A DNA stretch of 64,000 nt from Candidatus Phycocordibacter aenigmaticus (lineage in GTDB: Bacteria > Patescibacteriota > Minisyncoccia > Phycocordibacterales > Phycocordibacteraceae): the NCBI GenBank assembly GCA_045401115.1, contig CP174359.1, positions 122,288 to 186,287 on the forward strand, read 5' to 3'. Below are positions 1 to 50,327 of the stretch, in pieces (position 1 is the stretch's first letter; each line of letters begins with the position of its first letter). The position numbers and the translations under genes were made by a program. The notes under the pieces were generated by a model. It ran no database searches. It had not been told where the DNA came from and saw only the letters and a list, made by a program, of their open reading frames with translations.

Positions 1-2913
1 AAACACATATTCGGCGATAAACGGCGTGAAAGGTGCTAATAATTTTGCGGTTTCTCTAAGAACAAAACGTACCGTACTCAATGCAGCTGCGCAGTCCTCG
101 CTTTCTTCTTTAAAACGATCACGAGAACGTCGTGCATACCACGTAGAAAGGTCATCAATAAAACTCATAAGGGGTCGCGATGCACGATCCAACTCATAGC
201 GGTCCATATTGTGCCGTACCTCTGTTTCAGTTTCAGCAAGACGTGCCACAATCCATTGGTCTAACACATGCTGTGTATGTGGCACTGCATCATGCATACT
301 CTTTTCTCGGTACAATTCATACAGTGAAAGCACGTTTGTAAAACGACCAATGAGTTTTGAGGCAACTTCTGCGACACTCTTTTCGGTAAAACTAAAATCT
401 TCTGCTCGCACTGCCGGAGACGAAAGTAAGTAGTACCGGACGGCGTCAGCGCCGTACTGATCAACAATCTCCATAGGATCAGGATAATTCTTTAATTTCT
501 TCGACATCTTCTGCCCGTCCTCAGCCAGTACCGTGCCATTTACAATGACATTTTTATATGGCGCACGACCAAAGAGCCCGGTTCCTAACACTAAAAGCGA
601 GTAAAACCATCCACGTGTTTGATCCAACCCTTCGGCAATAAAGTCAGCTGGATATCCCTTCGTCTTTTTAAACCACCCTGTTTTCGGTTCAAATGTATCG
701 GTATTTTCAAATGGGTAATGCTGTTGCGCCAATGGCATCGAGCCTGACTCAAACCAACAGTCGAACACATCAGAAACACGTTCAAGCGACTCACCGGTTT
801 CATCAACAAGTTGCACCTCGTCAATATATGGCCGATGGAAATCAAGTTCGTAGTCGCGGTTATGCGGCAACGGCACAAAATCAATCTCTTTTGGCTCTCC
901 TTTTACTGGATAGCACGCCTCCCAATGAGCGACTGTTTCTTTTTTATCCAGCCCTTGCGTCACTGCCGCCAAAAGCGCCAACGGGTCGCCATGTGAAATG
1001 ATAAGTATTTTTTTGTTCTCATACTTTCCCTCAAGTTCATACAACACCTCCCCCATACGGCGCCGTACATCGTTCCAATTTTCACCACCCTCTGGAGCAT
1101 GTTCAAAACGGTCAAGACTGATCGGATATTTCGCAGCAAACTCCTTATACGGTGTTCCTTCCGCTACACCATGTTCCAATTCACGCACTCGCTCATCAAA
1201 CACCACCTGCTCTTTTGAAAGCCCAAGCTCTTTGGCAACCAGCTCCGCAGTCTGCCGGGCACGCAACACCGGCGACGCAATAATCAGATCCACACCGTTC
1301 AATTTCTCCTGTGCCGCACGACGCACGTCCTCTTCTCCTTTTGACGTCAGTGGGTACGGCGCGTCAAACGCATCAGTCACGATGCTTGGGGAAACATTTT
1401 TTTCACTCTCTCCATGCCGCATCACCATATATGTGTTTCCGGAACGTTTGGTATGTTTTTTTAAGTCATCCAAAGAACCGACAACCTTCATATCACCGGC
1501 AGTGTTTTTCCATACAGGAATTGGAGCGCCCCAATAACGCGCACGTGAGATAGACCAGTCACGCACATTCTCAAGCCAATTACCAAAACGCTTCTCTCCC
1601 ACCTCGGGCGGCACCCAATTAATTTTTTTATTTTCTGAAACGAGTGCGTCTTTTATTTTCTTTGTCTCAACAAACCATGAAGTGGTTGCGTAATTCAGTA
1701 GCGGTGTATCACAGCGCCAACAATGCGGGTATGAATGTGTAATTTTTTCCTTTTTAAAAAGTATCCCTGCATGCGCAAGATGTTTAATAATCTCAATATC
1801 AGTTGCCTGATGATCATCACGCGGTTTTACCTGCATACCCGCAAAATCAGAAACCGCTGATACGAACACACCTTCTTTATCTACATGATGTACGATCGGG
1901 ATGTTTTTTTCTTGTGCAAGCGCAAGGTCATCAGCACCAAACGCCGGGGCAAGATGCACAATACCGGTACCATCCTCAACAGTGACATAATCTGCATGAT
2001 ATATCTGCCACGCATGCTCTTTATGTTCAAGCGCATTATCTGTGTAGTAATTAAATGGTGGAATGTATTTTTTACCCACCAAGAAACTTCCTGCAACCTC
2101 ACGCTCAATCGTAGCGTCTTCAAAAAAGTCTTCGACGCGCTCTTTTGCCACATAAAAAATACCCTCGTCAGTTTTTACCGCAGCATATGTTATTTCGTTA
2201 TTAACCGCTGCAGCCATGTTCCCTGGGAGCGTCCATGGCGTTGTGGTCCACGCCAACACATAACTACCTGGTTCATCCACTAATTCAAGTTTTACGGTAA
2301 CAGAAAAATCTTTTATATCCTTATACCCCTGTGCTACCTCAAAGTTTGAGAGCGTCGTGCCACACCGTGGACACAGATGCATTGATTTAAACCCCTCATA
2401 CACCAATCCTTTACTGCGTAATTGTGCAAAAATCCACCAAATCGATTCCGTATATGTCCAATCCATAGTGCGGTAATCATTCTCCATATCAACCCACCGA
2501 CCAAAGCGCGGTACTACTTTTTTCCACTCATCTGCATAACGCAACACGGCACTCCGCGCAGCTTCATTAAATGTTTCAATTCCTAACTCTTCAATATCCT
2601 TCTTATTTTTAAGGCCAAGTTCTTTTTCTATCTGATTTTCCAATGGCAAGCCGTGTGTGTCCCACCCCCACCGACGCCGCACATGGTACCCACGCATAGT
2701 TTTATACCGCGGGATAGCGTCTTTAATGGTGCCTGCAAGTAAATGCCCATAGTGTGGCAACCCCGTAGCAAACGGTGGTCCATCATAAAATACAAATTCC
2801 TTCCCTCCTTCTGTTTGCGTGAGCGTTTGTTCAAAAATATTCTGTTCATTCCAAAACGCGAGCATCTCTTCCTCGCGCTTTGCGGTCTCCGATTTCTTTT
2901 GTTCGTCTGCCAT
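1..2913 (-). CDS. ileS: Isoleucyl-tRNA synthetase, N-terminal ~970 aa; the gene continues past the left edge of the window. Start ATG at 2913. Carries a ~200-aa histidine-phosphatase-like domain inserted in the catalytic core.
   Basis: Manual translation of the minus strand from 2913 gives MADEQKK...PPFATGLPHYGHLLAG (HIGH motif), GWDTHGLP, WTTTPWTLPGN, DWSISRARYWGAPIP and QKMSKKLKNYPDP (KMSKS motif) in one uninterrupted frame. The ORF track omits it because it has no in-window stop. RHGESEKN ... ILIISHGDP lies between PIPVW and FHRPYIDEV. Confidence 0.85.
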   Translation of the reverse strand, partial: MADEQKKSETAKREEEMLAFWNEQNIFEQTLTQTEGGKEFVFYDGPPFATGLPHYGHLLAGTIKDAIPRYKTMRGYHVRRRWGWDTHGLPLENQIEKELGLKNKKDIEELGIETFNEAARSAVLRYADEWKKVVPRFGRWVDMENDYRTMDWTYTESIWWIFAQLRSKGLVYEGFKSMHLCPRCGTTLSNFEVAQGYKDIKDFSVTVKLELVDEPGSYVLAWTTTPWTLPGNMAAAVNNEITYAAVKTDEGIFYVAKERVEDFFEDATIEREVAGSFLVGKKYIPPFNYYTDNALEHKEHAWQIYHADYVTVEDGTGIVHLAPAFGADDLALAQEKNIPIVHHVDKEGVFVSAVSDFAGMQVKPRDDHQATDIEIIKHLAHAGILFKKEKITHSYPHCWRCDTPLLNYATTSWFVETKKIKDALVSENKKINWVPPEVGEKRFGNWLENVRDWSISRARYWGAPIPVWKNTAGDMKVVGSLDDLKKHTKRSGNTYMVMRHGESEKNVSPSIVTDAFDAPYPLTSKGEEDVRRAAQEKLNGVDLIIASPVLRARQTAELVAKELGLSKEQVVFDERVRELEHGVAEGTPYKEFAAKYPISLDRFEHAPEGGENWNDVRRRMGEVLYELEGKYENKKILIISHGDPLALLAAVTQGLDKKETVAHWEACYPVKGEPKEIDFVPLPHNRDYELDFHRPYIDEVQLVDETGESLERVSDVFDCWFESGSMPLAQQHYPFENTDTFEPKTGWFKKTKGYPADFIAEGLDQTRGWFYSLLVLGTGLFGRAPYKNVIVNGTVLAEDGQKMSKKLKNYPDPMEIVDQYGADAVRYYLLSSPAVRAEDFSFTEKSVAEVASKLIGRFTNVLSLYELYREKSMHDAVPHTQHVLDQWIVARLAETETEVRHNMDRYELDRASRPLMSFIDDLSTWYARRSRDRFKEESEDCAAALSTVRFVLRETAKLLAPFTPFIAEYVF

Positions 2914-14271: not shown

Positions 14272-14511
14272 CTATACCGCTTATTTCACTCCCATAAAAA
14301 TAACTCGCCTGAAGCGAGTTATGTATGGGGTGGGAACGGGATTCGGCGTCAGTGGACTGATGGGAATCTCACTGCTCGGCGTATTCTCGCCTGCGCTCAC
14401 GAAACCCACGGTTTCGTGGACTTCCTCCACGGGGGAACACCCAGTTCCCCCGACCCCCTTTCTGGTTCGAATCCCATCGAACACCGCAGCATTCACTGCG
14501 TTCATGTCTTG

Positions 14512-16810: not shown

Positions 16811-17091
16811 GAATAACGAATTATAAAATCAGTATGTATACCTGTTGCTAAACCCCACTCACTCTCTACTGTATGTACAACTGCCTGGGATGAGCCTTCT
16901 TCCAAGTGACCAAGAAGTGTTTGAAGTCGGTCGCGATCACTTTCGGCATACACAAACACACTCCCGTCTTCTTTATTCATTACTTCTCCCACGACACCAA
17001 GGTTACGCGCCTCTCGTTGTACAAAATCGCGAAAAAATACTCCTTGCACCTCTCCAACAACTGTCGCGGAAAGCGAAACACCCTTCGCCAT
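16807..17091 (-). CDS. acyP: Acylphosphatase
   Basis: 94 aa; VVGEVQGVFFRDFV motif. Confidence 0.8.
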   Translation of the reverse strand: MAKGVSLSATVVGEVQGVFFRDFVQREARNLGVVGEVMNKEDGSVFVYAESDRDRLQTLLGHLEEGSSQAVVHTVESEWGLATGIHTDFIIRYS

Positions 17092-17094
17092 AGA

Positions 17095-17424
17095 CTACTC
17101 AATCTCGCTCTTAAGTCGCGTGAGCCATTTATCATCAAGCGCTTTTTCAATATCAATACCTTCACTATCGGCAAACAAAAGAAGAAATCCAAGCACGTCC
17201 GCAAATTCTTTCTCAAATTCTGTACGAATCTCTTCGTCAGAAAGTCCTTTCTTTCGTCCACGCCCGGTATACATTAAGTACGCTTGCAAACACTCTCCCC
17301 ACTCTTCCGTCATCTTAAACGGATAGTAGTCACGGTCTACTTGCACATCAGGAAAATCCTGTTGATAGCGATGCATCACTTTTTTTACCTGCGCGGTCAG
17401 TTCACTGAGTGATTTATTTGACAT
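17095..17424 (-). CDS. MazG-like nucleotide pyrophosphohydrolase (paralog 3)
   Basis: 109 aa; EFADVLGFLLLFADSEGIDIEKAL motif of the all-alpha NTP-PPase fold. Confidence 0.55.
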   Translation of the reverse strand: MSNKSLSELTAQVKKVMHRYQQDFPDVQVDRDYYPFKMTEEWGECLQAYLMYTGRGRKKGLSDEEIRTEFEKEFADVLGFLLLFADSEGIDIEKALDDKWLTRLKSEIE

Positions 17425-17447
17425 AGTTTTTTATAGTATTCACCGTA

Positions 17448-17828
17448 TTAAAATAAACGACTGCCATTGGGCACCGGCTTCTCGGGTGAAGTTAACACAA
17501 TATCACCTTGTTCGTCGGCAAAGCCAGTCACCAGACACTCTGACATAAAGGGACCGACCTGTTTAGGGGGAAAGTTGATCACGGCAAGTACCTGCCTACC
17601 CACCAAATCTTCTTTTGAATAGTGCTTCGTTATTTGTGCGCTCGATTTTTTAGTACCAATCTCTTCACCGAAATCTATTTCGAGCTTATACGCCGGTTTC
17701 CGTGCTTCAGGAAAATCCTGTACATCAACGACAGTCCCCACGCGCAGATCCACCTTCTCAAAGTCGCCCCAGCTTATTTCGTTCATACTCATATATGGAT
17801 TGTAACAAAGCCGATGCTCCTCCACCAT
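17448..17828 (-). CDS. tRNA-binding domain protein (CsaA/Trbp111-like, Myf/EMAP fold)
   Basis: FEKVDLRVGTVVDVQDFPEARKPAYKLEIDFGEE...VLAVINFPPKQVG. Confidence 0.7.
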   Translation of the reverse strand: MVEEHRLCYNPYMSMNEISWGDFEKVDLRVGTVVDVQDFPEARKPAYKLEIDFGEEIGTKKSSAQITKHYSKEDLVGRQVLAVINFPPKQVGPFMSECLVTGFADEQGDIVLTSPEKPVPNGSRLF

Positions 17829-17929
17829 AAACGGCTCACCCTATTGAGCCGTTTATGGGACTTCACCTTTTCACTACTTTGTAGTATTCTCTTTACACAC
17901 TCAGCTTAGTGGTTTTCATGAGCTGAGAG

Positions 17930-18052
17930 GTGAATTGAAAATAGAATATAGATATGCGCGATTAGCTCAGTTGGTAGAGGTGAAGAAGGTCTGGGAGACC
18001 TTCGAACCGTTTACACCTGTAAACGAGCTGCGTGACATAGTGGTAAAAAGTA
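17930..18052 (+). pseudogene. Rearranged partial tRNA-Val copy: 24-bp upstream context plus the first 24 nt of tRNA-Val, followed by two hairpins that include the reverse complement of the anticodon arm
   Basis: A ~48-bp direct repeat (gaattgRaaatagaatatagatatgcgcgattagctcagttggtagag) at 17930-17980 and 18053-18101. Between them lie GAAGGTCtgggaGACCTTC and cgtttacacctgtaaacgagctgcg. Confidence 0.5.
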
Positions 18053-18077
18053 AGAATTGGAAATAGAATATAGATAT

Positions 18078-18150
18078 GCGCGATTAGCTCAGTTGGTAGA
18101 GCAGCTCGTTTACACCGAGAAGGTCGGGAGTTCAAGTCTCTCATCGCGCA
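18078..18150 (+). tRNA. tRNA-Val (anticodon TAC)
   Basis: GCGCGATTAGCTCAGTTGGTAGAGCAGCTCGTTTACACCGAGAAGGTCGGGAGTTCAAGTCTCTCATCGCGCA; anticodon loop TTTACAC. Followed by the terminator aaaaagagtccctgcggactcttttt (18159-18186). Confidence 0.85.
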
Positions 18151-18211
18151 CCTGAAACAAAAAGAGTCCCTGCGGACTCTTTTTGTTTACAGGTGCGAGG
18201 CGCAGGCATAT

Positions 18212-18273
18212 TTCATTTTTGTTGTAATTCGTGACAAAAATGAAAAGCCGAGCCTAGACCAAGCACACTTAGT
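18212..18273 (+). repeat. tRNA-associated mosaic repeat, locus 1 (modules U1 hairpin + U2)
   Basis: ttcatttttgttgtaattcgtgacaaaaatgaa (10-bp stem palindrome) + aagccgagcctagaccaagcacacttagt. Homologous copies at 23818-23972, 31897-32003 (inverted), 19116-19162 and 32117-32230. Confidence 0.7.
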
Positions 18274-18385
18274 TCGCGCAGTGTTGCGAAGCAACACGAG
18301 TAGACTTAGTGATGGATGGTCCACGAAAAAAAGCTGCCAGCCTCATCACCAAAAAACAGCATCTCTCGATGCTGTTTTTTCTTAC

Positions 18386-18865
18386 CTATTCCTCCTCTTC
18401 TATCTGCACCTTTTCAAACTCCAGTGCACCACCGCGATTGAGATAAATAAGCACTAATCGCTCTCGGGTGAGTTCTGTAATCGCAAAGTACAGCGGACCT
18501 GAATCATCCTGCATTTCAAGATATACCATTCCAGCTTCTGTTGGATACGGAAATTCCTCAGGTGCATTTTCTGCAGTAAAAATTACCCAAGGACCGTTTG
18601 CTTGTTCTTCCCCTTCATAGCTATCCATATAACCACCGTTCTCATACATAGTTCGGACAAAATTAGGGTCTTCAGTTGACTGCCACACTCCGGCAAGCGA
18701 ACCAATAGAAAGTGGTGAGTCCATCGCTGTCTCATCATTTTCAGACGTTGTTTGTTGTACTTGTTGGTTTTCCTCATCAGAAACCTCTGATGGATTGTTT
18801 GCAAACAAATAGAAACCACCGGCAACAACAATAATTGCGATGATTGGAATAAGTATATTTTTCAT
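18386..18865 (-). CDS. Hypothetical secreted/membrane-anchored acidic protein
   Basis: 159 aa; N-terminal TM/signal MKNILIPIIAIIVVAGGFYLFA; sits between tRNA-associated repeats. Confidence 0.45.
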   Translation of the reverse strand: MKNILIPIIAIIVVAGGFYLFANNPSEVSDEENQQVQQTTSENDETAMDSPLSIGSLAGVWQSTEDPNFVRTMYENGGYMDSYEGEEQANGPWVIFTAENAPEEFPYPTEAGMVYLEMQDDSGPLYFAITELTRERLVLIYLNRGGALEFEKVQIEEEE

Positions 18866-18965
18866 AAAAATAATATTAATGTATATAAAACCAGTGTACC
18901 ACTATAGGAGAAAGGCGGGATGAGGGGTGTATAAAACGAAAGATCCATGTCTCGGAGGGAATGTT

Positions 18966-19062
18966 ACTGCTCAGTTTTGTGTCCTCTGTAGGATCGTCCC
19001 GGAATAGCGGACTTTTTACTGCACCCTGCGGGCACAGAAAAAGCTCTCGCTTTCCTGGATTT
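18966..19062. repeat. ~90-bp direct repeat copy 2 containing a degenerate tRNA-Arg(TCT) 3'-end-like segment (att-like)
   Basis: ttgtgtcctctgtaggatcgtcccggaatagcggactttt...aaaaagctctcgctttcctgga; ~85% identical to 19201-19295. Confidence 0.6.
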
Positions 19063-19115
19063 ACCCACACCTATTTTAAAAATTATTGTAGGAAATCTCA
19101 GTTGGTTTAAAATCA

Positions 19116-19162
19116 TGGTCACCCGTCACTAAGTATAATTGTTCGCCTGCGGCTCCAATTCT
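19116..19162. repeat. tRNA-associated mosaic repeat, locus 2 (inverted U4 + U5)
   Basis: ggtcacccgtcactaagtataattgttcgcctgcggctccaattcta; matches 32117-32165 and the inverse of 23956-23972. Confidence 0.65.
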
Positions 19163-19200
19163 ACAAAACAAAGTTTTGTTTCTTGTAGGAAATCTCACTG

Positions 19201-19295
19201 CTCTGCCTCCTGTTAGGATCGTCCCGGAATAGCGGACTTTTGTAGGCACGCTTCGCGCACCTAAAAAGCTCTCGCTTTCCTGGACGCGGCCTCGA
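19201..19295. repeat. ~90-bp direct repeat copy 1 with a tRNA-Arg(TCT) 3'-end-like segment (att-like)
   Basis: tctgcctcctgttaggatcgtcccggaatagcgg... The first 18 bp match the tRNA-Arg 3' end (tgcctcctgtaggaatcg at 19431-19448) with 1 indel. Confidence 0.6.
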
Positions 19296-19430
19296 ATGTT
19301 TTGCTCCGTGAATTCTCCGCAAAACATATACTCCGGCCGTTCGATTCCTAACGCAAACCAAGAAATTGGTCTGCTCAAAGGCACCTTTAAAGAAAAAATC
19401 GCCAACTGCTTGGCGATTTGTATCTTTGGG

Positions 19431-19502
19431 TGCCTCCTGTAGGAATCGAACCCACATCGAGTGGATAGAAGCCACTTGTTTTATCCATTAAACTAAGGAG
19501 GC
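19431..19502 (-). tRNA. tRNA-Arg (anticodon TCT)
   Basis: Revcomp GCCTCCTTAGTTTAATGGATAAAACAAGTGGCTTCTATCCACTCGATGTGGGTTCGATTCCTACAGGAGGCA; anticodon loop CTTCTAT. A downstream terminator-like hairpin aaaaaatcgccaactgcttggcgattt lies at 19394-19420. Confidence 0.85.
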
Positions 19503-19533
19503 TTTTATAGACTACCCCTTCCACGACAAAGGT

Positions 19534-19839
19534 TCAAGACGGGTCATTCATCTCAGGGCGTTGCACATTACCCGCTTCGTAGTTAGTCTCTCTTCGCTCA
19601 TACGTCTCTAACACTTCTTGCAGCTCAGTGCGCGGCATACGCGGCGTTGGTGCAGCGTCTCCTGAAAGCACATCATTCACTCCGTCTGCTTTAAAAGTAA
19701 AAAAGAAATTTACTGCAATAAGCGAAACGATAAGCACCAACACGACAACAATTCCAAGCAAACCATACCAATCACGAATCGGCGAAGGGGTGCCAAACTC
19801 AAGAATTGTGTTCCATATATTAATTATTTTTTTCATCAT
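19534..19839 (-). CDS. Hypothetical single-TM membrane protein, first gene of the pilM-N-O operon direction
   Basis: 101 aa; TM LLGIVVVLVLIVSLIAVNFFF. Confidence 0.4.
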   Translation of the reverse strand: MMKKIINIWNTILEFGTPSPIRDWYGLLGIVVVLVLIVSLIAVNFFFTFKADGVNDVLSGDAAPTPRMPRTELQEVLETYERRETNYEAGNVQRPEMNDPS

Positions 19840-19841
19840 AT

Positions 19842-20360
19842 CTATTCAAGCGGTTTTGCTTTAATAAAACGTGCAGTGAACGAACCAAACCACGCGCGCG
19901 CACCCGCATCTTCTAAAATACTTTGGTCAATACGCGTCGCTTGTGGTAATTTCTCTAATACTGCAATAAAGCCAATAATATTTTCGAAACGTCCTTCGAG
20001 CGAAAATGCAACATCAACACGTTCGTGATGTTTCCAGTCAGCTGACGCAATTAATACTTCAGAAATATTAATAGCCACTCCTTCTTCTACAGCCAGCCGT
20101 TCTAATGTTTCAATCACTGACACAACGTCATTTTCACCAATAACAAAATTATCGAGCCGGCTTCGTTCTTCTGTAACGTCATCTAAAAAAGTGCGGATTG
20201 AAGTTGCAGTTGCGTCCTGCCGCATTAACATTTGTGCATCTTCGGTCGCTACTTGTATCTGCTCTATCGAGCGAGAAACTCCACTATACAAAAAACCATA
20301 CCCTACAAAAAATATAACGGTCACAATACTCACAACAATAAGTGGGATAATATTTTTCAT
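19842..20360 (-). CDS. pilO: Type IV pilus assembly protein PilO-like
   Basis: 172 aa; N-terminal TM then coiled-coil/ferredoxin-like region; position after pilM-pilN. Confidence 0.6.
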   Translation of the reverse strand: MKNIIPLIVVSIVTVIFFVGYGFLYSGVSRSIEQIQVATEDAQMLMRQDATATSIRTFLDDVTEERSRLDNFVIGENDVVSVIETLERLAVEEGVAINISEVLIASADWKHHERVDVAFSLEGRFENIIGFIAVLEKLPQATRIDQSILEDAGARAWFGSFTARFIKAKPLE

Positions 20361-20362
20361 AA

Positions 20363-20899
20363 TTACTTTTTATATCTCATTTCTAGTGAAAACTCGGTGT
20401 TACTTTCACTGACTAACTGTGACACCGGTAGTGTCACACCACTTAAACGAGGACTTTCTCGTAAAGACTCTACAAACACCAAAAGATTTTGGCGCGTATT
20501 TGCGCTCCCTTTTAAAGCAACGGTCACTTCATCATTCTTATGAACCAAAGAAATATATGAAACAGCGATACCGCCGGTAATACGTTCATTAAACACATCG
20601 AAAAAATCTGCCATGACAGTGTCTGTGTGGTAGCTATTTAAAATAGTCACCCGTTCTTTTAATTCAGACAGTAGTGTCGTGGCATTTGTTCCTTCTTGTA
20701 AACCAACTGTCCCTTTAAGGGCATCACGATACCGTTCCACCGAAAGCGCTGTGTTCTGTGCAGAAAAAAAACTTGGCACTAACAGCACATTGCCAATAAA
20801 AAGCGCGACACTCATACCAGATAAAAGCAATATTCCGAAACGGATATAATACTGACGCATGAGTCGTTTCTTGTTTTTTTGCGGCAATAAATTAATCAT
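20363..20899 (-). CDS. pilN: Type IV pilus assembly protein PilN
   Basis: Begins MINLLPQKNKKRL, the canonical PilN N-terminus, followed by a TM. Confidence 0.75.
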   Translation of the reverse strand: MINLLPQKNKKRLMRQYYIRFGILLLSGMSVALFIGNVLLVPSFFSAQNTALSVERYRDALKGTVGLQEGTNATTLLSELKERVTILNSYHTDTVMADFFDVFNERITGGIAVSYISLVHKNDEVTVALKGSANTRQNLLVFVESLRESPRLSGVTLPVSQLVSESNTEFSLEMRYKK

Positions 20900-21987
20900 A
20901 GAAAATTCTTGTTATTACACGAACGCAGCGCAAGTCCTACGGTTGCCGCGTACTCTAAAGAAGTAGTATGAGGTAGTGCTGGAACATAACGGTCAAAAGA
21001 AAAAGCATTCGTCCATACATTACCAACCCGTACCGGCACATTAAGGCTCCGAGAAAGATATTCAGGCAGTCCTTTTAAATTAGCATTACCACCGACAAGA
21101 ATAATACTTTCCACTGGATGTGAAGTGAACTCTTTTTCATATGAAGAATCCCAATATGTCACATGTCGTTCCACTTCATCTTTAAATACGGAAATGGTAG
21201 CCATTAACGTTTCATACAGTTCTCGATTTTCCCCGCCTTCTAAAAAACCACGTGTATTTTTTATTTTTTCAGCTTCGTCCGCGTCAACATTAAAATGCTT
21301 CATAACCGCAGTGGTTAATGTTTCACCCCCTACATCAACGGTTACTGTAAAACCAACAACACCGTGTTCAAATATTGCAATACGTGTTGTCTTTTTTCCA
21401 AAATCAACCACCATCGTGGTGTGCTTCTTATCTTCTGGAGACAGCACCGCGCGTCCCAATGCTTGTGACTCCACTTCAAGTGAACGCAATGTGATCCCGG
21501 CATCATTAAAAACTTGCTGATACAACTCAATAACGCGTTTTGCATATGCCGTTACACTCACATGGGTCCCCTCTCCGTCACGTTGCACAACTTCAAAATC
21601 AAACACTACATCGTTCGGCGGAATCGGCACATGTGACTCGAGAGAAAATTCAACCGCTGCGCGCAAATTACGTTCACTACTTGGTACCCACGTTTGATAT
21701 AAATATGCTTTTCGTTCAGAAAGTGATGCGTGCGCAAAACGAATTCTTTCTCGTAGACGTAATGAACGGAGTAACTCAACCATTTTATCTGGTTGCTCAA
21801 TATCACCGTCAACAACCACTCCTTCGGCAAGCGGTGTCTCGCGATACGACTGAAGTACGCACCCTGCTCTCTGTTGTGCCAACACCATTGACTTAACTGA
21901 GTGTGAACCAATATCAATCCCCGCACCACTCATTGCAAGGTATTGTGGCGGTGGAAACATTCTTGCGGTACGCGAAAAGAATTGCAT
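20896..21987 (-). CDS. pilM: Type IV pilus assembly protein PilM (actin-like ATPase fold)
   Basis: 363 aa; GIDIGSHSVKSMVL ... VVDFGKKTTRIAIFEHG ... IILVGGNANLKGLPEYL. Confidence 0.8.
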   Translation of the reverse strand: MQFFSRTARMFPPPQYLAMSGAGIDIGSHSVKSMVLAQQRAGCVLQSYRETPLAEGVVVDGDIEQPDKMVELLRSLRLRERIRFAHASLSERKAYLYQTWVPSSERNLRAAVEFSLESHVPIPPNDVVFDFEVVQRDGEGTHVSVTAYAKRVIELYQQVFNDAGITLRSLEVESQALGRAVLSPEDKKHTTMVVDFGKKTTRIAIFEHGVVGFTVTVDVGGETLTTAVMKHFNVDADEAEKIKNTRGFLEGGENRELYETLMATISVFKDEVERHVTYWDSSYEKEFTSHPVESIILVGGNANLKGLPEYLSRSLNVPVRVGNVWTNAFSFDRYVPALPHTTSLEYAATVGLALRSCNNKNFL

Positions 21988-23757: not shown

Positions 23758-23817
23758 CAAAGACAAAAATCACCAACTGCTTGGTGATTTTTCGCTTTGT
23801 GCTAGGCGGAGGCATGT

Positions 23818-23972
23818 TTCATTTTTGTTGTAATTCGTGACAAAAATAAAAAGCCTTGAGTGTATTCGCTTCGCTCTCACGGGTAAAAGCTACCTGCTGT
23901 CGCTTTTACCGGGTCGAGCGCACTTAGTATTTTTAGAACGTAGTGAATAAAAATAGTTAGTGACGGGTGACC
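23818..23972 (+). repeat. tRNA-associated mosaic repeat, locus 3 (U1-U2-U3-U4, with a ~60-bp insertion in U2)
   Basis: ttcatttttgttgtaattcgtgacaaaaataaa...gagcgcacttagtatttttagaacgtagtgaataaaaatagttagtgacgggtgacc; reverse-complement homolog at 31897-32003. Confidence 0.7.
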
Positions 23973-24101
23973 ACAAAATTAAAACTGCCTGAAGAGGTGG
24001 TTTTTTAATAGTGATCCCGTCAGGAGTCGAACGGGAAAGGGATCGGGAAAACACGTTGTTTCCCCGTGGAGGAAGTGGTGACGATTGAGTAAATCAAAGA
24101 A

Positions 24102-25600: not shown

Positions 25601-25627
25601 GTGACGGAGGGAGTGGGATTCACTGCA
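25601..25627. repeat. Direct repeat of the tRNA-Ser 3' end (att-like)
   Basis: gacggagggagtgggattcactgcacc versus tRNA 25749-25771 tgcggagggagtgggattcgaaccc. A more degenerate copy ccgtggaggaagtggtgacgatt lies at ~24057-24079. Confidence 0.6.
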
Positions 25628-25748
25628 CCGCTACATTTTCTAATCGCTTCACTCAAGAAAATCTACGCTCCCAGCACCTTGCTTCTCATCCCACTGCTCC
25701 TTATATAAAACAAAAGAACTGGCGCGAAGCCAGTTCTTTTGTTTAATG

Positions 25749-47671: not shown

Positions 47672-48772
47672 CTACTTGTTCATTGGCATTACAAGGTAAG
47701 TAAACCCCTTATCAGGAACCTCACTAATAATAAGCGGCTTCCCAACTCCGGAGAATTTAAACACCAAACTATCAGTCACCACTGTACTTAATGCATCAAG
47801 AATATACCGTATATTAAAATTAACTTGGATAGGTTCACCTTCAAGTGCAGCATCAACAGACTCTCTACTTTCACCAACTTGTGTATTAACACCATTTACT
47901 GAAAGCAGTTTACTTGAAGGGTCTAAGTTAAACGCCACCTGCCCCGCCTGGTCGGTTACCACAGCAACCTTTTTTAAAGCCCGTTGCAGGTCTTCAGTAA
48001 GTAATGTCGCTGTGGTGGTGAAATCTTTTGGGATAATTGCAGTGTACTCAGGAAAAGCACCGTCGATCACCCGTGATGTTATAAAATTCCCATCACTCAT
48101 ATAGGTAACCTGGTTTTCACCAACACGAACCTCAACAGTATCAGTCCTCTCAATAACCCGTAAAATATCCGGTATATTACGGGCCGGAAGAAGGATCGAA
48201 TCAATATTATTCTTCACTTTTATATCAGCTTTTATTTCAGATAGACGAAAAGAGTCTGTTGCGGCGGTTATCAACATCCCATCTTGGACTGTAAGAAAAA
48301 CACTCGCTAACTCAGGACGCATACCTGAGGTTGCTGCCGCAAAAACAACACCCTTAAGGGAACGAGAAAATTCCTTCACAGGAAGTGTCAAAGATACCCC
48401 CTCTCCTTCTTTTACACAGGGTAAGGTGGGGAAATCACTCACATCAATAGTGTTTAGTTTTACCTCACCGTGACCAGTAATAATTTTTAATATCCCCTCA
48501 TCACTTTCGAGGGTTATTTTTTCATCCGAAATAGCATTAACTGCCTGACTAAATACATGCGCCGGGACAGCGACATCCCCTTCTTTAACAACCTTTGACT
48601 TTAGAGCAATTTCAACACTCACATCAAGATTGGTTGCTCTTAGTGTTGTTTTATTTTGTGTTGCCGATATAACCACACACCCCAATACTGGTAATGATAA
48701 ATTTTTATTACTCACTCGAGAAACTATTTGAGTTGCGTCTTCTAAATGTTTTTTTAATAATTCTAATTTCAT
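47672..48772 (-). CDS. dnaN: DNA polymerase III beta sliding clamp
   Basis: 366 aa; three-domain clamp pattern. Confidence 0.9.
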   Translation of the reverse strand: MKLELLKKHLEDATQIVSRVSNKNLSLPVLGCVVISATQNKTTLRATNLDVSVEIALKSKVVKEGDVAVPAHVFSQAVNAISDEKITLESDEGILKIITGHGEVKLNTIDVSDFPTLPCVKEGEGVSLTLPVKEFSRSLKGVVFAAATSGMRPELASVFLTVQDGMLITAATDSFRLSEIKADIKVKNNIDSILLPARNIPDILRVIERTDTVEVRVGENQVTYMSDGNFITSRVIDGAFPEYTAIIPKDFTTTATLLTEDLQRALKKVAVVTDQAGQVAFNLDPSSKLLSVNGVNTQVGESRESVDAALEGEPIQVNFNIRYILDALSTVVTDSLVFKFSGVGKPLIISEVPDKGFTYLVMPMNK

Positions 48773-48979
48773 ATACTTTTTATTTTTATACTCTGTGAGA
48801 TGTGTGGATTACAGTTTATATCTTTAAAGTTAAGGCTGTATTCACAAAGGTGTGCTGGGTAACGGTGTGTGTAAGTCTTGTGAATAACAAACCAGTAAAA
48901 CAGAAAAAGTTGTACACAAAACAATTAACATATTTTTTAGATTGGTTATACCGATAGTTATTCATATACTCTTCCACAG

Positions 48980-50327
48980 TTATTTCAACATGCTACGCAC
49001 TTCTCCAATTTCATTTTTGAAATCTTCGTTACCACTAAGGTCTGTTTTTATTTTTTCACAGGCATGAATAACAGTAGTGTGGTCGCGCCCACCAAAGACA
49101 GAACCAATTGCAGGGTATGAGAGATGAAAATCTTCTCGAAGTATGTACATAATTATTTGCCGAGGGCGAACTATTTCGCGTTTTCGTGTTTTTGCATACA
49201 TAGATGCCTCTTCAACACCATAAAACTCAGCAACTTTTCCTATAATGTTTTTCACAGAAACAGAGCGCTTTGGTTTAGTGGTTGATTTAATAACATCTTT
49301 TATGGCGGTATCATTTAACTCACTATTGAGTTGAGTTTGTATAAGGATGGTGTTGAGCATCCCTTCAATCTCTCTAATATTACCGGTAATTGCCAAAGAA
49401 AGGTGTTCAATAATTTCGTCGCTTAAATTAAGGCCAATTGAGTTTGCTTTGGTTTTAATAATAGCCATACGTGACTCATGGTCGGGTTCTTGTATTGCAA
49501 CAGTCATGCCAGAGACAAAACGTGACTGGAGGCGGTCAGTAAGATCAGGAATAAGATTAGGGTGTTCGATCTGATGAACACACAATTTGTTTGTTACAGT
49601 CATGTAGTGTGTTGAAGAGATGGAAAAACTCTTCCTGAAGCGTCCCTTTTTTCGAGAAAAACTGTATATCATCCATAATTAATACATCATAGGCACGATA
49701 CTTCTCTTTAAAAGTGGGGATGGTGCGATTATTAATCGCATTCATAAATTCAAAACCAAACCGTTCTGCGGTAAGGTAGTACACTTTTTTTTGAGCGACT
49801 GTTTTTTTAATATGATTCCCCACACTTTGTATTAAGTGTGTTTTTCCACGCCCTGTTTCTCCATAAATAAAGAGTGGGTTATATGAAATGCCTGGGTTTT
49901 TTGCTACTGCACTTGCCCCAGCGAATGCAATTTCATTAAATGGACCAACCACAAAAGTATCAAATGTATATCGCGGGTTAAGGTTATCTGATCGATTAAC
50001 ATAATAATCAGCTAACGGGAGTTCAGAACCACTCTTTTCTTCAGTAGGAACTTTTTCAGGCACTCGTTTCGGTTCTTGTTTTGAAACAACATATTCAATA
50101 CCGCGCACTGTATCTACAAACCCTCTGATGGTTTTTAAAATAAGCTTTCCGAAACGCTCGGAAAGCCATTCTTTAGTAAGTTGATTCGGTACACCAACGT
50201 ATACCACTCCCCCTTCTATACGGATAATATGTGTTTCGCCAAACCACATTTTAAAACTTGCTGGGGAAATTGAGAGTTCAATGTTGGTCAAAGTGTTTTC
50301 CCAAAGCTGTTTTGTATCAAGTTCCAT
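48980..50327 (-). CDS. dnaA: Chromosomal replication initiator DnaA, interrupted by an apparent +1 frameshift at a CCC run near 49557-49560 (ORFs 49557..50327 and 48980..49672 overlap)
   Basis: N-terminal ORF has GETGRGKTHL and MDDIQFF...KQIVCSSDRTP*; the other frame continues PNLIPDLTDRLQSRF...and the C-terminal DNA-binding domain. Removing one C restores canonical SDRTP-NLIPDLT-DRLQSRF spacing. Confidence 0.85.

What the first reader, a model, noticed from the sequence alone, without database searches (positions are those of the whole stretch)
18966..19502. Tandem att-like repeats carrying tRNA-Arg(TCT) 3'-end fragments, plus an inverted T-arm copy
Downstream of tRNA-Arg(TCT) (3' end at 19431) there are two ~90-bp direct repeats (19201-19295; 18966-19062). 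Each begins with a degenerate copy of the tRNA 3' end (tgcctcctgt(t)aggatcg). An inverted fragment of the T-arm region (ccgttcgattcctaacgc, 19340-19357) also lies nearby. Serial att duplications of a tRNA 3' end are the classic signature of successive site-specific integrations and excisions at a tRNA gene. The enclosed cargo is limited to a 159-aa secreted protein gene (18386-18865) and mosaic repeat modules. No integrase is present, so this is probably a decayed islet.
Basis: partly seen in the sequence, partly recalled or inferred. Interest (0 to 1): 0.5.

Follow-up and report, generated by a model that had tools for sequence, protein, structure and literature searches.

The report
tRNA-trailing hairpin modules copying tRNA ends
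The two repeats behind tRNA-Arg are decayed copies of a small non-coding module that is widespread in Patescibacteria and apparently undescribed; it sits behind many tRNA genes and carries an inverted and a direct copy of that tRNA's own 3' end.

Summary
Downstream of tRNA-Arg(TCT) lie two ~90-nt repeats, each ending in a degenerate copy of the tRNA 3' end, plus an inverted T-arm copy.

The "decayed integrase islet with cargo" reading is only partly right. The 159-aa gene lies outside the repeats. Each repeat is a 63-nt hairpin kept by three compensatory changes.

The same architecture recurs behind many tRNA genes in Patescibacteria: tRNA, terminator-like hairpin, inverted copy of tRNA positions 54-73, conserved hairpins, direct copy of 54-73. 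One strict core pattern hit the 120-stretch limit of a metagenome scan, behind tRNAs of at least 14 specificities.

The core shows strong covariation and G·U pairs on the tRNA strand only. It has no Rfam match, and I found no paper describing it.

One related pair of genomes differs by exactly one 167-nt module, flanked by a 23-24-nt repeat of the tRNA end. Cores are shared between different tRNA loci, while the arms always match the local tRNA.

Best reading: a small non-autonomous insertion module that targets tRNA 3' ends. The window holds two tandem, decayed copies. The enzyme and mechanism are unknown. A host-functional tRNA-like RNA is the main rival.

The parts
19431..19502 (-). tRNA-Arg(TCT). 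Its positions 54-73 (19450-19431, TTCGATTCCTACAGGAGGCA) are the sequence that is copied downstream.
   Evidence: ARAGORN, Rfam tRNA 67.4 bits, coordinates.
19393..19419 (-). Intrinsic-terminator-like hairpin directly after the tRNA (AAATCGCCAAGCAGTTGGCGATTTTTT).
   Evidence: (10-bp stem followed by a T run).
19337..19354 (-). Antisense arm 1: inverted copy of the tRNA T-loop and T-stem (GCGTTAGGAATCGAACGG).
   Evidence: It occupies the same position and has the same ..TCGAA end as the antisense arms of the family.
19294..19331 (-). Small hairpin containing a degenerate sense-like piece (GAGAATTCACGGAGCA, 19317-19302), followed by ATTCGAGGCC.
19222..19284 (-). Proximal long hairpin 'P2w-1' (63 nt, 27 bp, apex GCGAAGC).
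   Evidence: (-44 kcal/mol with flanks, z = -4.3).
19204..19221 (-). Sense arm: direct degenerate copy of the tRNA 3' end (CGATCCTAACAGGAGGCA).
   Evidence: (family D7).
19178..19203 (-). GAGCAGTGA junction plus a second degenerate sense copy (GATTTCCTACAAGAAAC). It pairs with the next feature.
   Evidence: The same junction followed by a His-specific copy occurs behind tRNA-His.
19151..19169 (-). Antisense arm 2 (GTTTTGTAGAATTGGAGCC): inverted degenerate copy of the tRNA T-arm region. It starts the distal module.
   Evidence: Compare L005 Arg-gcg GTGTAGGAATTGAAGCC.
19117..19133 (-). Cassette CTTAGTGACGGGTGACC, shared with the trailer of tRNA-Arg(GCG) (23957-23972) and, in diverged form, with that of tRNA-Lys.
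19083..19100 (-). Third degenerate sense copy (TGAGATTTCCTACAATAA).
   Evidence: (family D6).
18997..19059 (-). Distal long hairpin 'P2w-2'. Its outer stem is identical to P2w-1, and its apex differs by three compensated pairs.
18980..18996 (-). Sense arm of the distal module (CGATCCTACAGAGGACA). It is more decayed than the proximal one.
18948..18972 (-). GAGCAGTAAC junction plus the last, most degenerate sense copy (ATTCCCTCCGAGACA).

Best explanation
The two repeats are two tandem, partly decayed copies of a small non-coding module (about 130-230 nt). In Patescibacteria this module is inserted directly behind tRNA genes.

A complete module reads, on the tRNA strand:
1. a terminator-like hairpin;
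2. an inverted copy of the tRNA's positions 54-73, usually split by a small hairpin at the boundary between acceptor stem and T-stem;
3. a conserved structured core: GAAG, a long hairpin P2 with a U-rich/A-rich middle stem and a G·A-flanked apex that is often GCGAAGC, then GGGUACUG, then a 5-bp hairpin P3 with a UGUAA loop;
4. a direct copy of positions 54-73.

The inverted and direct copies pair with each other. The inverted copy can alternatively pair with the tRNA's own 3' end.

Shown:
- The module is gained or lost as a unit, bounded by the direct repeat.
- Its core is shared between different tRNA loci, while the arms always match the local tRNA.
- The structure is selected on the tRNA-sense strand.
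- In tandem arrays the copy nearest the tRNA is the best preserved.

Inferred:
- It is a non-autonomous mobile module that enters at the T-loop or 3' end of tRNA genes, regenerating the tRNA end and leaving the displaced end as the direct repeat.
- Repeated entry at tRNA-Arg(TCT) produced the array at 18948-19354, which has since decayed. P3 is lost and the arms are eroded.

Unknown: the enzyme, whether the intermediate is RNA or single-stranded DNA, and how the inverted arm is fitted to each new tRNA.
For: Window:
- The repeats, sense copies and antisense copies are as listed in the parts.
- The hairpin has 27 pairs, 98% paired in both copies. All nine substitutions lie in the apex, and six of them form three double-compensated pairs. 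Two G·U pairs are valid only on the minus strand.
- The minus strand folds better than the plus strand: -44.0 against -34.7 and -34.4 against -30.9 kcal/mol.
- tRNA-His, tRNA-Ser and tRNA-Arg(GCG) in the window carry their own inverted arms of 18-25 nt. tRNA-His (20 nt, degenerate) and tRNA-Ser (17/17) also carry direct arms around hairpin cores.

Family:
- In loci chosen only by PilM or 159-aa protein homology, 14 tRNAs have a copy of their last 17 nt (at most 3 errors) 90-310 nt downstream. None has one upstream.
- One strict core pattern hit the 120-stretch limit in metagenomes.
- Among 127 pattern matches, about 90 have a same-strand tRNA upstream in the locus, most of them 30-110 nt away. 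At least 14 specificities are represented, and in most the arm matches that tRNA.
- The repeat starts at T54 and ends 1-2 nt past the discriminator.
- Across 116 distinct cores, 84.7% of cells are paired against 70.3% in shuffles (0/500). The covariation score is 0.383 against 0.154 (0/500). Slid controls give at most 50%.
- There are 68 G·U pairs against 3 A·C.
- L005 and L007 differ by exactly one 167-nt module flanked by a 23-24-nt repeat, within flanks that are about 90-100% identical.
- The core of that extra module is 80% identical to the module behind tRNA-Val in the same genome, but only 60% identical to its tandem neighbour.

Link between the window hairpin and the family:
- The three best hits of the window-hairpin model in 660 kb of metagenome loci are all P2 hairpins of family modules, in register.
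- The window tRNA-Ser module has the same U-run / GAG..AGCGA / A-run apex.

There is no Rfam match and no integrase among 20 of the 26 ORFs of 250 aa or more in the window.
Against: - No mobilising enzyme, excised form or autonomous copy was found.
- The pattern found nothing in viral contigs.
- The two kb-scale islands lying between a tRNA and its module (L050 and L106) look like independent insertions.
- The L005/L007 difference could be a deletion between direct repeats rather than an insertion.
- The canonical core model finds nothing in the window. The window copies are linked to the family by architecture and weak similarity (E about 1.5), not by a significant score.
- No close relative of this genome was available to test the tRNA-Arg locus itself. 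The only one, L010, breaks inside the tRNA.
- Deep sequence conservation of the core and RNA-like motifs fit a host-functional RNA equally well.
- How an inverted arm interleaved with conserved blocks gets refitted to a new tRNA is unexplained.
Confidence: 0.55

Rival explanations
1. The modules are host-functional, tRNA-linked structured RNAs. Each is transcribed by read-through or within tRNA operons. Its inverted and direct arms form a helix that mimics the acceptor/T-arm minihelix of the cognate tRNA. That helix could be recognised by RNase P, RNase Z, the CCA-adding enzyme or the cognate synthetase, or it could toggle with pairing to the tRNA's own 3' end. On this view the modules are inherited vertically, the arms track the tRNA through selection and gene conversion, and tandem copies arise by unequal crossing-over.
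For: - Junctions and loops are conserved across lineages whose PilM is only about 30-40% identical to the window's.
- Covariation is strong and wobble pairs are strand-specific.
- RNA-typical motifs are present: tandem G·A pairs and a GNRA-like UGUAA loop.
- The layout resembles a tRNA: an acceptor-like stem, a hairpin in place of the D and anticodon arms, and an extended T-stem.
- In one case a tRNA starts 4 nt after the sense arm, which implies co-transcription (L085).
Against: - Occupancy is very patchy. Direct copies were found behind 0 of 3 to 6 of 7 tRNAs per sampled locus, and orthologous tRNAs are with or without a module.
- Many copies are decayed or truncated, including every copy at the window's tRNA-Arg locus.
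- A terminator usually separates the tRNA from the module, and there is no promoter signal above chance.
- Arm pairing runs into genomic trailer bases rather than CCA.
- The core behind tRNA-Leu is closest to the core behind tRNA-Val in the same genome. This needs inter-locus transfer.
Confidence: 0.3
2. The repeats are serial att scars and arm remnants of classical integrase-borne islands or prophages that integrated into tRNA-Arg(TCT), then excised or were deleted, leaving a decayed islet.
For: - There are direct repeats of the tRNA 3' end starting in the T-loop.
- A large-serine-recombinase island of about 7.9 kb does sit between a tRNA-Val and its module in L050, and it leaves a displaced, decaying tRNA end.
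- tRNA trailers are clearly insertion hot spots (L106).
Against: - No integrase gene was found among 20 of the 26 ORFs of 250 aa or more in the window.
- The 159-aa 'cargo' is outside the repeats and is a relocated chromosomal gene.
- The same compact structured core recurs behind at least 14 tRNA specificities. Independent deletions of different islands would have had to stop at the same endpoints each time.
- The model does not explain the inverted arm.
- There were zero hits in viral contigs.
Confidence: 0.1
3. This is a local tandem duplication of the tRNA-Arg trailer followed by drift. The resemblance to the tRNA end and to elements elsewhere would then be chance or low complexity.
For: - Only two copies of the long hairpin exist in the 64-kb window.
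- Tandem Repeats Finder sees no regular array.
Against: - Chance expectation for the matches is about 0.
- All substitutions between the copies lie in the hairpin apex, and six of them are compensatory.
- Inverted plus direct copies of the cognate tRNA end recur at other window tRNAs and in unrelated genomes.
Confidence: 0.03

Closest known systems
att-site duplications of tRNA-targeting integrative elements (tyrosine or serine integrase islands and prophages; crossover in the T-loop with the identity block running to the 3' end)
   Same: - A direct repeat of the tRNA 3' end starts in the T-loop and ends just past the discriminator.
- The tRNA stays intact.
- Tandem arrays have the youngest copy next to the tRNA.
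- Occupied and empty sites occur in relatives.
   Different: - The unit is 130-230 nt with no integrase and no cargo.
- It has a conserved, covarying hairpin core.
- It carries an additional inverted copy of the target.
- One core family sits behind at least 14 tRNA specificities, with arms matched to each.
MITEs and REP/BIME-type small intergenic repeat elements
   Same: - Small, non-coding, hairpin-rich and multi-copy within a genome.
- They sit in terminator-like positions.
- Presence is patchy, and copies occur decayed and in tandem.
   Different: - The 'terminal repeats' are not element sequence. They are copies of the neighbouring tRNA end and differ at every locus.
- The flanking duplication is 20-22 nt rather than 2-10 nt.
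- Placement and orientation are strict: only downstream of a tRNA and on its strand.
- No cognate transposase is known.
Folded single-strand recombination sites (integron attC; CTX-phage attP(+) that mimics dif)
   Same: - The structure is strand-specific and kept by compensation rather than by sequence.
- An inverted plus a direct copy could fold into a duplex replica of the target site.
- The integrated order (target, X, inverted copy, core, direct copy) is what recombination of such a folded site would give.
   Different: - No IntI- or Xer-type partner was identified.
- The target is a tRNA gene.
- The element is far smaller than a cassette or a phage.
- This is a resemblance by reasoning only and was not tested.
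tRNA-like non-coding RNAs (mascRNA, bacterial YrlA/Y RNA, viral 3' tRNA-like structures, tmRNA)
   Same: An acceptor/T-arm-like helix is combined with non-tRNA hairpins. The RNase P/Z and CCA machinery could recognise it.
   Different: - There is no Rfam match.
- The helix is a copy of the neighbouring tRNA, including its paired T-loop and trailer bases.
- CCA is not consistently encoded.
- There is one module per tRNA locus rather than one gene per genome.
Retroviral / LTR-retroelement primer-binding sites
   Same: An 18-25-nt stretch is exactly complementary to the 3' end of a specific tRNA.
   Different: - Complementarity continues into the genomic trailer, not into CCA.
- It is masked by a sense copy.
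- No reverse transcriptase is associated.
- It lies next to the tRNA gene itself.

Membership tests
tRNA-integrated genomic island / prophage remnant | Direct repeat of the tRNA 3' end bounding the inserted DNA | tested here: met
   Window copies at 19221-19204 and 18996-18980. In the family the repeat runs from T54 to position 73 plus 1-2 nt.
tRNA-integrated genomic island / prophage remnant | Integrase or recombinase gene (or its pseudogene) inside the bounded segment | tested here: not met
   The bounded segments are 130-230 nt and non-coding. No recombinase domain was found in 20 of the 26 window ORFs of 250 aa or more. Small ORFs and the rest of the genome were not tested.
tRNA-integrated genomic island / prophage remnant | Cargo genes enclosed by the repeats | tested here: not met
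   The 159-aa gene lies outside the last repeat. Its homologues are chromosomal, between ftsW and murG.
tRNA-integrated genomic island / prophage remnant | Empty versus occupied site among relatives at this locus | not testable with these tools
   The only close relative (76% PilO identity) is on a contig that ends inside the tRNA. For the family, an occupied/empty pair exists at tRNA-Leu in L005 and L007.
MITE | Terminal inverted repeats conserved among copies and matching a transposase family | tested here: not met
   The arms are copies of the adjacent tRNA and differ between loci. Only the interior is conserved.
MITE | Short target-site duplication of fixed length | tested here: not met
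   The duplication is about 20-22 nt (T54 to 73 plus 1-2) and occasionally extends 22-60 nt into the trailer.
Any Rfam 15 RNA family | Covariance-model match | tested here: not met
   Apart from the tRNAs, no Rfam match at E of 1 or less falls on the repeats or on any module: window 17000-21000; L004, L005 and L009.
Patescibacterial tRNA-trailing module family (defined here) | Inverted plus direct copy of positions ~54-73 of the tRNA immediately upstream on the same strand | tested here: met
   Antisense arms at 19354-19337 and 19169-19151. Sense arms at 19221-19204 and 18996-18980, plus three degenerate ones.
Patescibacterial tRNA-trailing module family (defined here) | Canonical core (GAAGCC, P2, GGGUACUG, P3 with UGUAA loop) detectable by the family covariance model | tested here: not met
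   Model R2 finds nothing in the window at E of 10 or less. The window hairpin resembles P2 only weakly: its three top hits, at E about 1.5, all fall on P2. P3 is absent. The window copies are therefore a divergent or decayed subtype.
Integron attC / CTX-type folded single-strand att site | Strand-specific hairpin maintained by compensation | tested here: met
   68 G·U against 3 A·C pairs, covariation, and three compensated pairs between the window copies.
Integron attC / CTX-type folded single-strand att site | Recombination by IntI or XerCD on the folded strand | not testable with these tools
   No partner enzyme was identified. This would need experiments or a genome-wide co-occurrence analysis.

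The most novel reading that the evidence does not exclude
This is a class of element, common across Patescibacteria and apparently undescribed, whose two arms are re-templated, one inverted and one direct, from whichever tRNA gene it lands behind. That would imply either of two things. One is a new insertion mechanism that enters at the universal T-loop and copies the target in both orientations, using an RNA or single-stranded-DNA intermediate with a conserved structured core. The other is a new class of tRNA-specific structured RNAs, one per tRNA gene, that mimic or sequester the cognate tRNA's acceptor/T-arm.
Probability: 0.35. Interest if true: 0.9.

Novelty: new variant of a known kind. 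Interest (0 to 1): 0.75.

Why it matters
- Patescibacteria have tiny genomes, yet in the loci sampled here between none and six of seven tRNA genes carry a 130-230-nt structured appendage. Something maintains or propagates it.
- If the module is mobile, it is a new way of targeting tRNA genes. One element family uses all tRNA species and always carries the local target sequence in both orientations. No known integrase, transposase or guide-RNA system explains this.
- If the module is a host RNA, it is a new tRNA-linked RNA class with a defined, covarying fold. It could bear on tRNA processing or quality control in a phylum where these pathways are poorly known.
- In practice these modules break assemblies, create pseudo-tRNA fragments, and can be mistaken for att scars of islands.

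Tried and rejected
- Rfam scans of the window region and of three relatives found only tRNAs.
- Tandem Repeats Finder found no array.
- Four viral-contig scans (both hairpin arms, the tRNA end, the family core) returned 0 hits.
- I considered hammerhead and other small ribozymes, SRP RNA, the T-box, retron msr/msd, IS200/IS605 ends, IS110 bridge RNA, group I intron remnants and a PBS-like primer site. I set them aside on layout, by inspection and reasoning; Rfam was the only formal test. A paper on group I introns in Patescibacteria tRNAs does not mention these modules.
- I examined the large-serine-recombinase island in L050 as a possible autonomous parent. I rejected it because a third, decayed copy of the tRNA end lies at the island's right edge, so it is an independent integration.
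- I examined the type I restriction-modification island in L106 in the same way. It has its own 15-bp terminal inverted repeats and duplicates the trailer hairpin, so it is unrelated.
- I tested co-transcription with downstream tRNAs. Only 1 of 114 modules has a tRNA within 30 nt, which is not decisive.
- Seven literature searches found no description of such modules.
- I could not obtain a close relative covering the tRNA-Arg locus.

Full report
**Observation**

The window comes from Patescibacteria group bacterium UBA2163. Its PilO and its 159-aa protein are 100% identical to proteins named for that genome, on a 721-kb contig.

tRNA-Arg(TCT) lies at 19431-19502 on the minus strand. A terminator-like hairpin follows at 19419-19393.

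The two repeats are real. Positions 18989-19059 and 19214-19284 are 87% identical over 71 nt without gaps. A 25-mer from them occurs exactly twice, against 0 expected.

In tRNA orientation each repeat ends in a degenerate copy of the tRNA 3' end: 19221-19204 and 18996-18980. The inverted T-arm copy is at 19354-19337.

Three more degenerate sense copies lie at 19203-19178, 19100-19083 and 18972-18948. A second inverted copy lies at 19169-19151.

The 159-aa gene is not enclosed. No tRNA-Arg end copy lies beyond it.

**The repeat body is a hairpin**

Each repeat folds into one 63-nt hairpin of 27 pairs. With flanks the energies are -44.0 and -34.4 kcal/mol, with z-scores of -4.3 and -3.3. The plus strand folds less well.

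The outer 22 and 28 nt are identical between the copies. All nine substitutions lie in the apex, and six of them form three doubly compensated pairs. Two G·U pairs are valid only on the tRNA strand.

**The architecture recurs elsewhere**

Relatives found through PilM (29-40% identity) keep the order pil operon, tRNA-Arg(TCT), tRNA-Val.

Reading their spacers showed the same layout as in the window. A tRNA is followed by a terminator-like hairpin, an inverted copy of its own 3' end, hairpins, and a direct copy of its own 3' end.

In these unbiased loci, 14 tRNAs have a copy of their last 17 nt (at most 3 errors) 90-310 nt downstream. None has one upstream.

In the window, tRNA-His, tRNA-Ser and tRNA-Arg(GCG) carry their own arms:
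- tRNA-His: antisense arm 14488-14464, sense arm 14345-14326.
- tRNA-Ser: antisense arm 25700-25683, sense arm 25621-25605.
- tRNA-Arg(GCG): antisense arm 24011-24032.

The trailers of tRNA-Val, tRNA-Arg(GCG) and tRNA-Lys share near-identical cassettes.

**A widespread family**

A strict pattern for the commonest core is GAAGCCYGWTTGAG, a gap of 15-45 nt, then GGRTACTGNNNNYGTAAG. It hit the 120-stretch limit in metagenome contigs and found nothing in viral contigs.

Among 127 pattern matches, about 90 have a same-strand tRNA upstream in the locus, most of them 30-110 nt away. The tRNAs are of at least 14 specificities. In most, the arm after P3 matches that tRNA.

The inverted arm is the exact reverse complement of positions 54-73. 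It is usually split by a small hairpin at the boundary between the acceptor stem and the T-stem.

The direct repeat starts at T54. The commonest exact run is 20 nt. It ends 1-2 nt past the discriminator and rarely extends 22-60 nt into the trailer.

Arm complementarity includes genomic trailer bases, so the arms were copied from DNA and not from mature tRNA carrying CCA.

**Structure support**

An alignment of 116 distinct cores supports four helices:
- P1b, formed by the inverted and direct arms;
- the P2 base;
- the P2 middle stem;
- P3.

In that alignment 84.7% of cells are paired against 70.3% in shuffles (0/500). The covariation score is 0.383 against 0.154 (0/500). Slid controls give at most 50%.

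G·U pairs outnumber A·C pairs 68 to 3. The structure is therefore read on the tRNA-sense strand, either as RNA or as single-stranded DNA.

No Rfam family matches. Seven literature searches found no description.

**Dynamics**

L005 and L007 are about 90-100% identical around tRNA-Leu(GAG). L005 has one extra 167-nt module flanked by the 23-24-nt repeat TTCAAGTCCTCTCCCGCGCACAA(G).

That module's core is 80% identical to the core behind tRNA-Val in the same genome. It is only 60% identical to its tandem neighbour, and that neighbour is 87% identical to its L007 orthologue. Cores therefore move between tRNA loci, while the arms match the local tRNA.

Occupancy is patchy. Tandem arrays and decayed or orphan copies occur.

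**Link between the window copies and the family**

The family model finds nothing in the window. The window copies lack P3 and have eroded arms.

The model built from the two window hairpins gives only weak hits in 660 kb of metagenome loci, at E about 1.5. Its three best hits all fall on P2 hairpins of family modules, in register.

The window tRNA-Ser module shares the P2 apex design. I read the window array as a divergent, decayed subtype.

**Mechanism**

Shown:
- The module is a unit indel bounded by the direct repeat.
- Cores are shared between loci.
- The structure is strand-specific.
- In tandem arrays the copy nearest the tRNA is the best preserved.

Inferred: a non-autonomous module enters at the T-loop or 3' end of tRNA genes.

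Unknown: the enzyme, the intermediate, and how the inverted arm is refitted to a new tRNA.

Two kb-scale islands lie between a tRNA and its module. L050 carries a large serine recombinase and L106 a type I restriction-modification system. Both are independent insertions.

The main rival is a host-functional tRNA-like RNA. It does not explain the conserved core, the inverted arm, or the recurrence behind many different tRNAs.

No recombinase was found among 20 of the 26 window ORFs of 250 aa or more.

Homologues of the 159-aa gene lie between ftsW and murG in four relatives. Those two genes are not in the window.

Noticed in passing
window 17932-18031 and 18054-18152: A 48-nt segment (24 nt of upstream sequence plus the first 24 nt of tRNA-Val) is duplicated at 98% identity 122 nt upstream of tRNA-Val(TAC). 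It is followed by an inverted copy of the anticodon arm (18018-18031). This is a rearranged pseudo-tRNA-Val. Unlike in relatives, tRNA-Val here is convergent with tRNA-Arg.
   Followed up: partly
window 18147-18197: A perfect long hairpin has as its base the tRNA-Val 3' end plus trailer (CGCACCTG ... CAGGTGCG) around a bidirectional terminator. The same design flanks the terminators of tRNA-Lys (CGGACATG/CATGTCCG) and tRNA-Arg-GCG (AGCACAAAG/CTTTGTGCT).
   Followed up: partly
window 18211-18241 and 23817-23847; also the trailer of tRNA-Lys(CTT) below 32287: A cassette (TTTCATTTTTGTTGTAATTCGTGACAAAAAT, with flanks GAGGCG.AGGCAT and AAAAGCC) is near-identical in the trailers of tRNA-Val and tRNA-Arg(GCG). 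It occurs in diverged form (twice) in the trailer of tRNA-Lys. This is an intragenomic repeat family restricted to tRNA trailers.
   Followed up: partly
window 14322-14488 and 25602-25702: Complete modules lie behind tRNA-His and tRNA-Ser(TGA). Each has an inverted and a direct copy of its own tRNA end closing a multi-hairpin core (-72 and -29 kcal/mol).
   Followed up: yes
window 18386-18865: The 159-aa protein has an N-terminal hydrophobic segment and no Pfam match. Homologues (53-60% identity) lie between ftsW and murG in four relatives. Here it sits between two tRNA trailers, and ftsW/murG are not in the window.
   Followed up: partly
L050 4060-12254: An island of about 7.9 kb sits between tRNA-Val and its module. 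It carries a 597-aa large serine recombinase abutting the tRNA 3' end, an AAA_15/21 ATPase and a small terminase. A decayed displaced tRNA end lies at its right edge.
   Followed up: yes
L106 2283-12330: A 9.6-kb island encodes a type I restriction-modification system (HsdM, HsdS, HsdR, PIN). It has 15-bp terminal inverted repeats (CTCTGTACGACGAAA) and is inserted in the antisense arm of a module, with a 59-bp duplication of the trailer hairpin. The upstream tRNA is not called by ARAGORN, possibly because it contains an intron.
   Followed up: partly
L001, L002, L010: Short-read (Logan) contigs of this genome and of its closest relative break inside the repeats or inside tRNA-Arg. These modules therefore fragment assemblies.
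   Followed up: no
window 47672-50327: dnaN and dnaA lie here, and cumulative GC skew flattens near 52 kb. The replication origin is probably in the window.
   Followed up: no
window 19263-19241; A8 alignment apex columns 40-58: The hairpin apex is often GCGAAGC flanked by G·A pairs. From memory, that heptamer is known as an unusually stable DNA mini-hairpin. This would fit a single-stranded-DNA role as well as an RNA one.
   Followed up: no
L085, about 2740-2790 (minus strand): A tRNA-Val starts 4 nt after the sense arm of the module behind tRNA-Ser. That module must be transcribed within a tRNA operon.
   Followed up: partly
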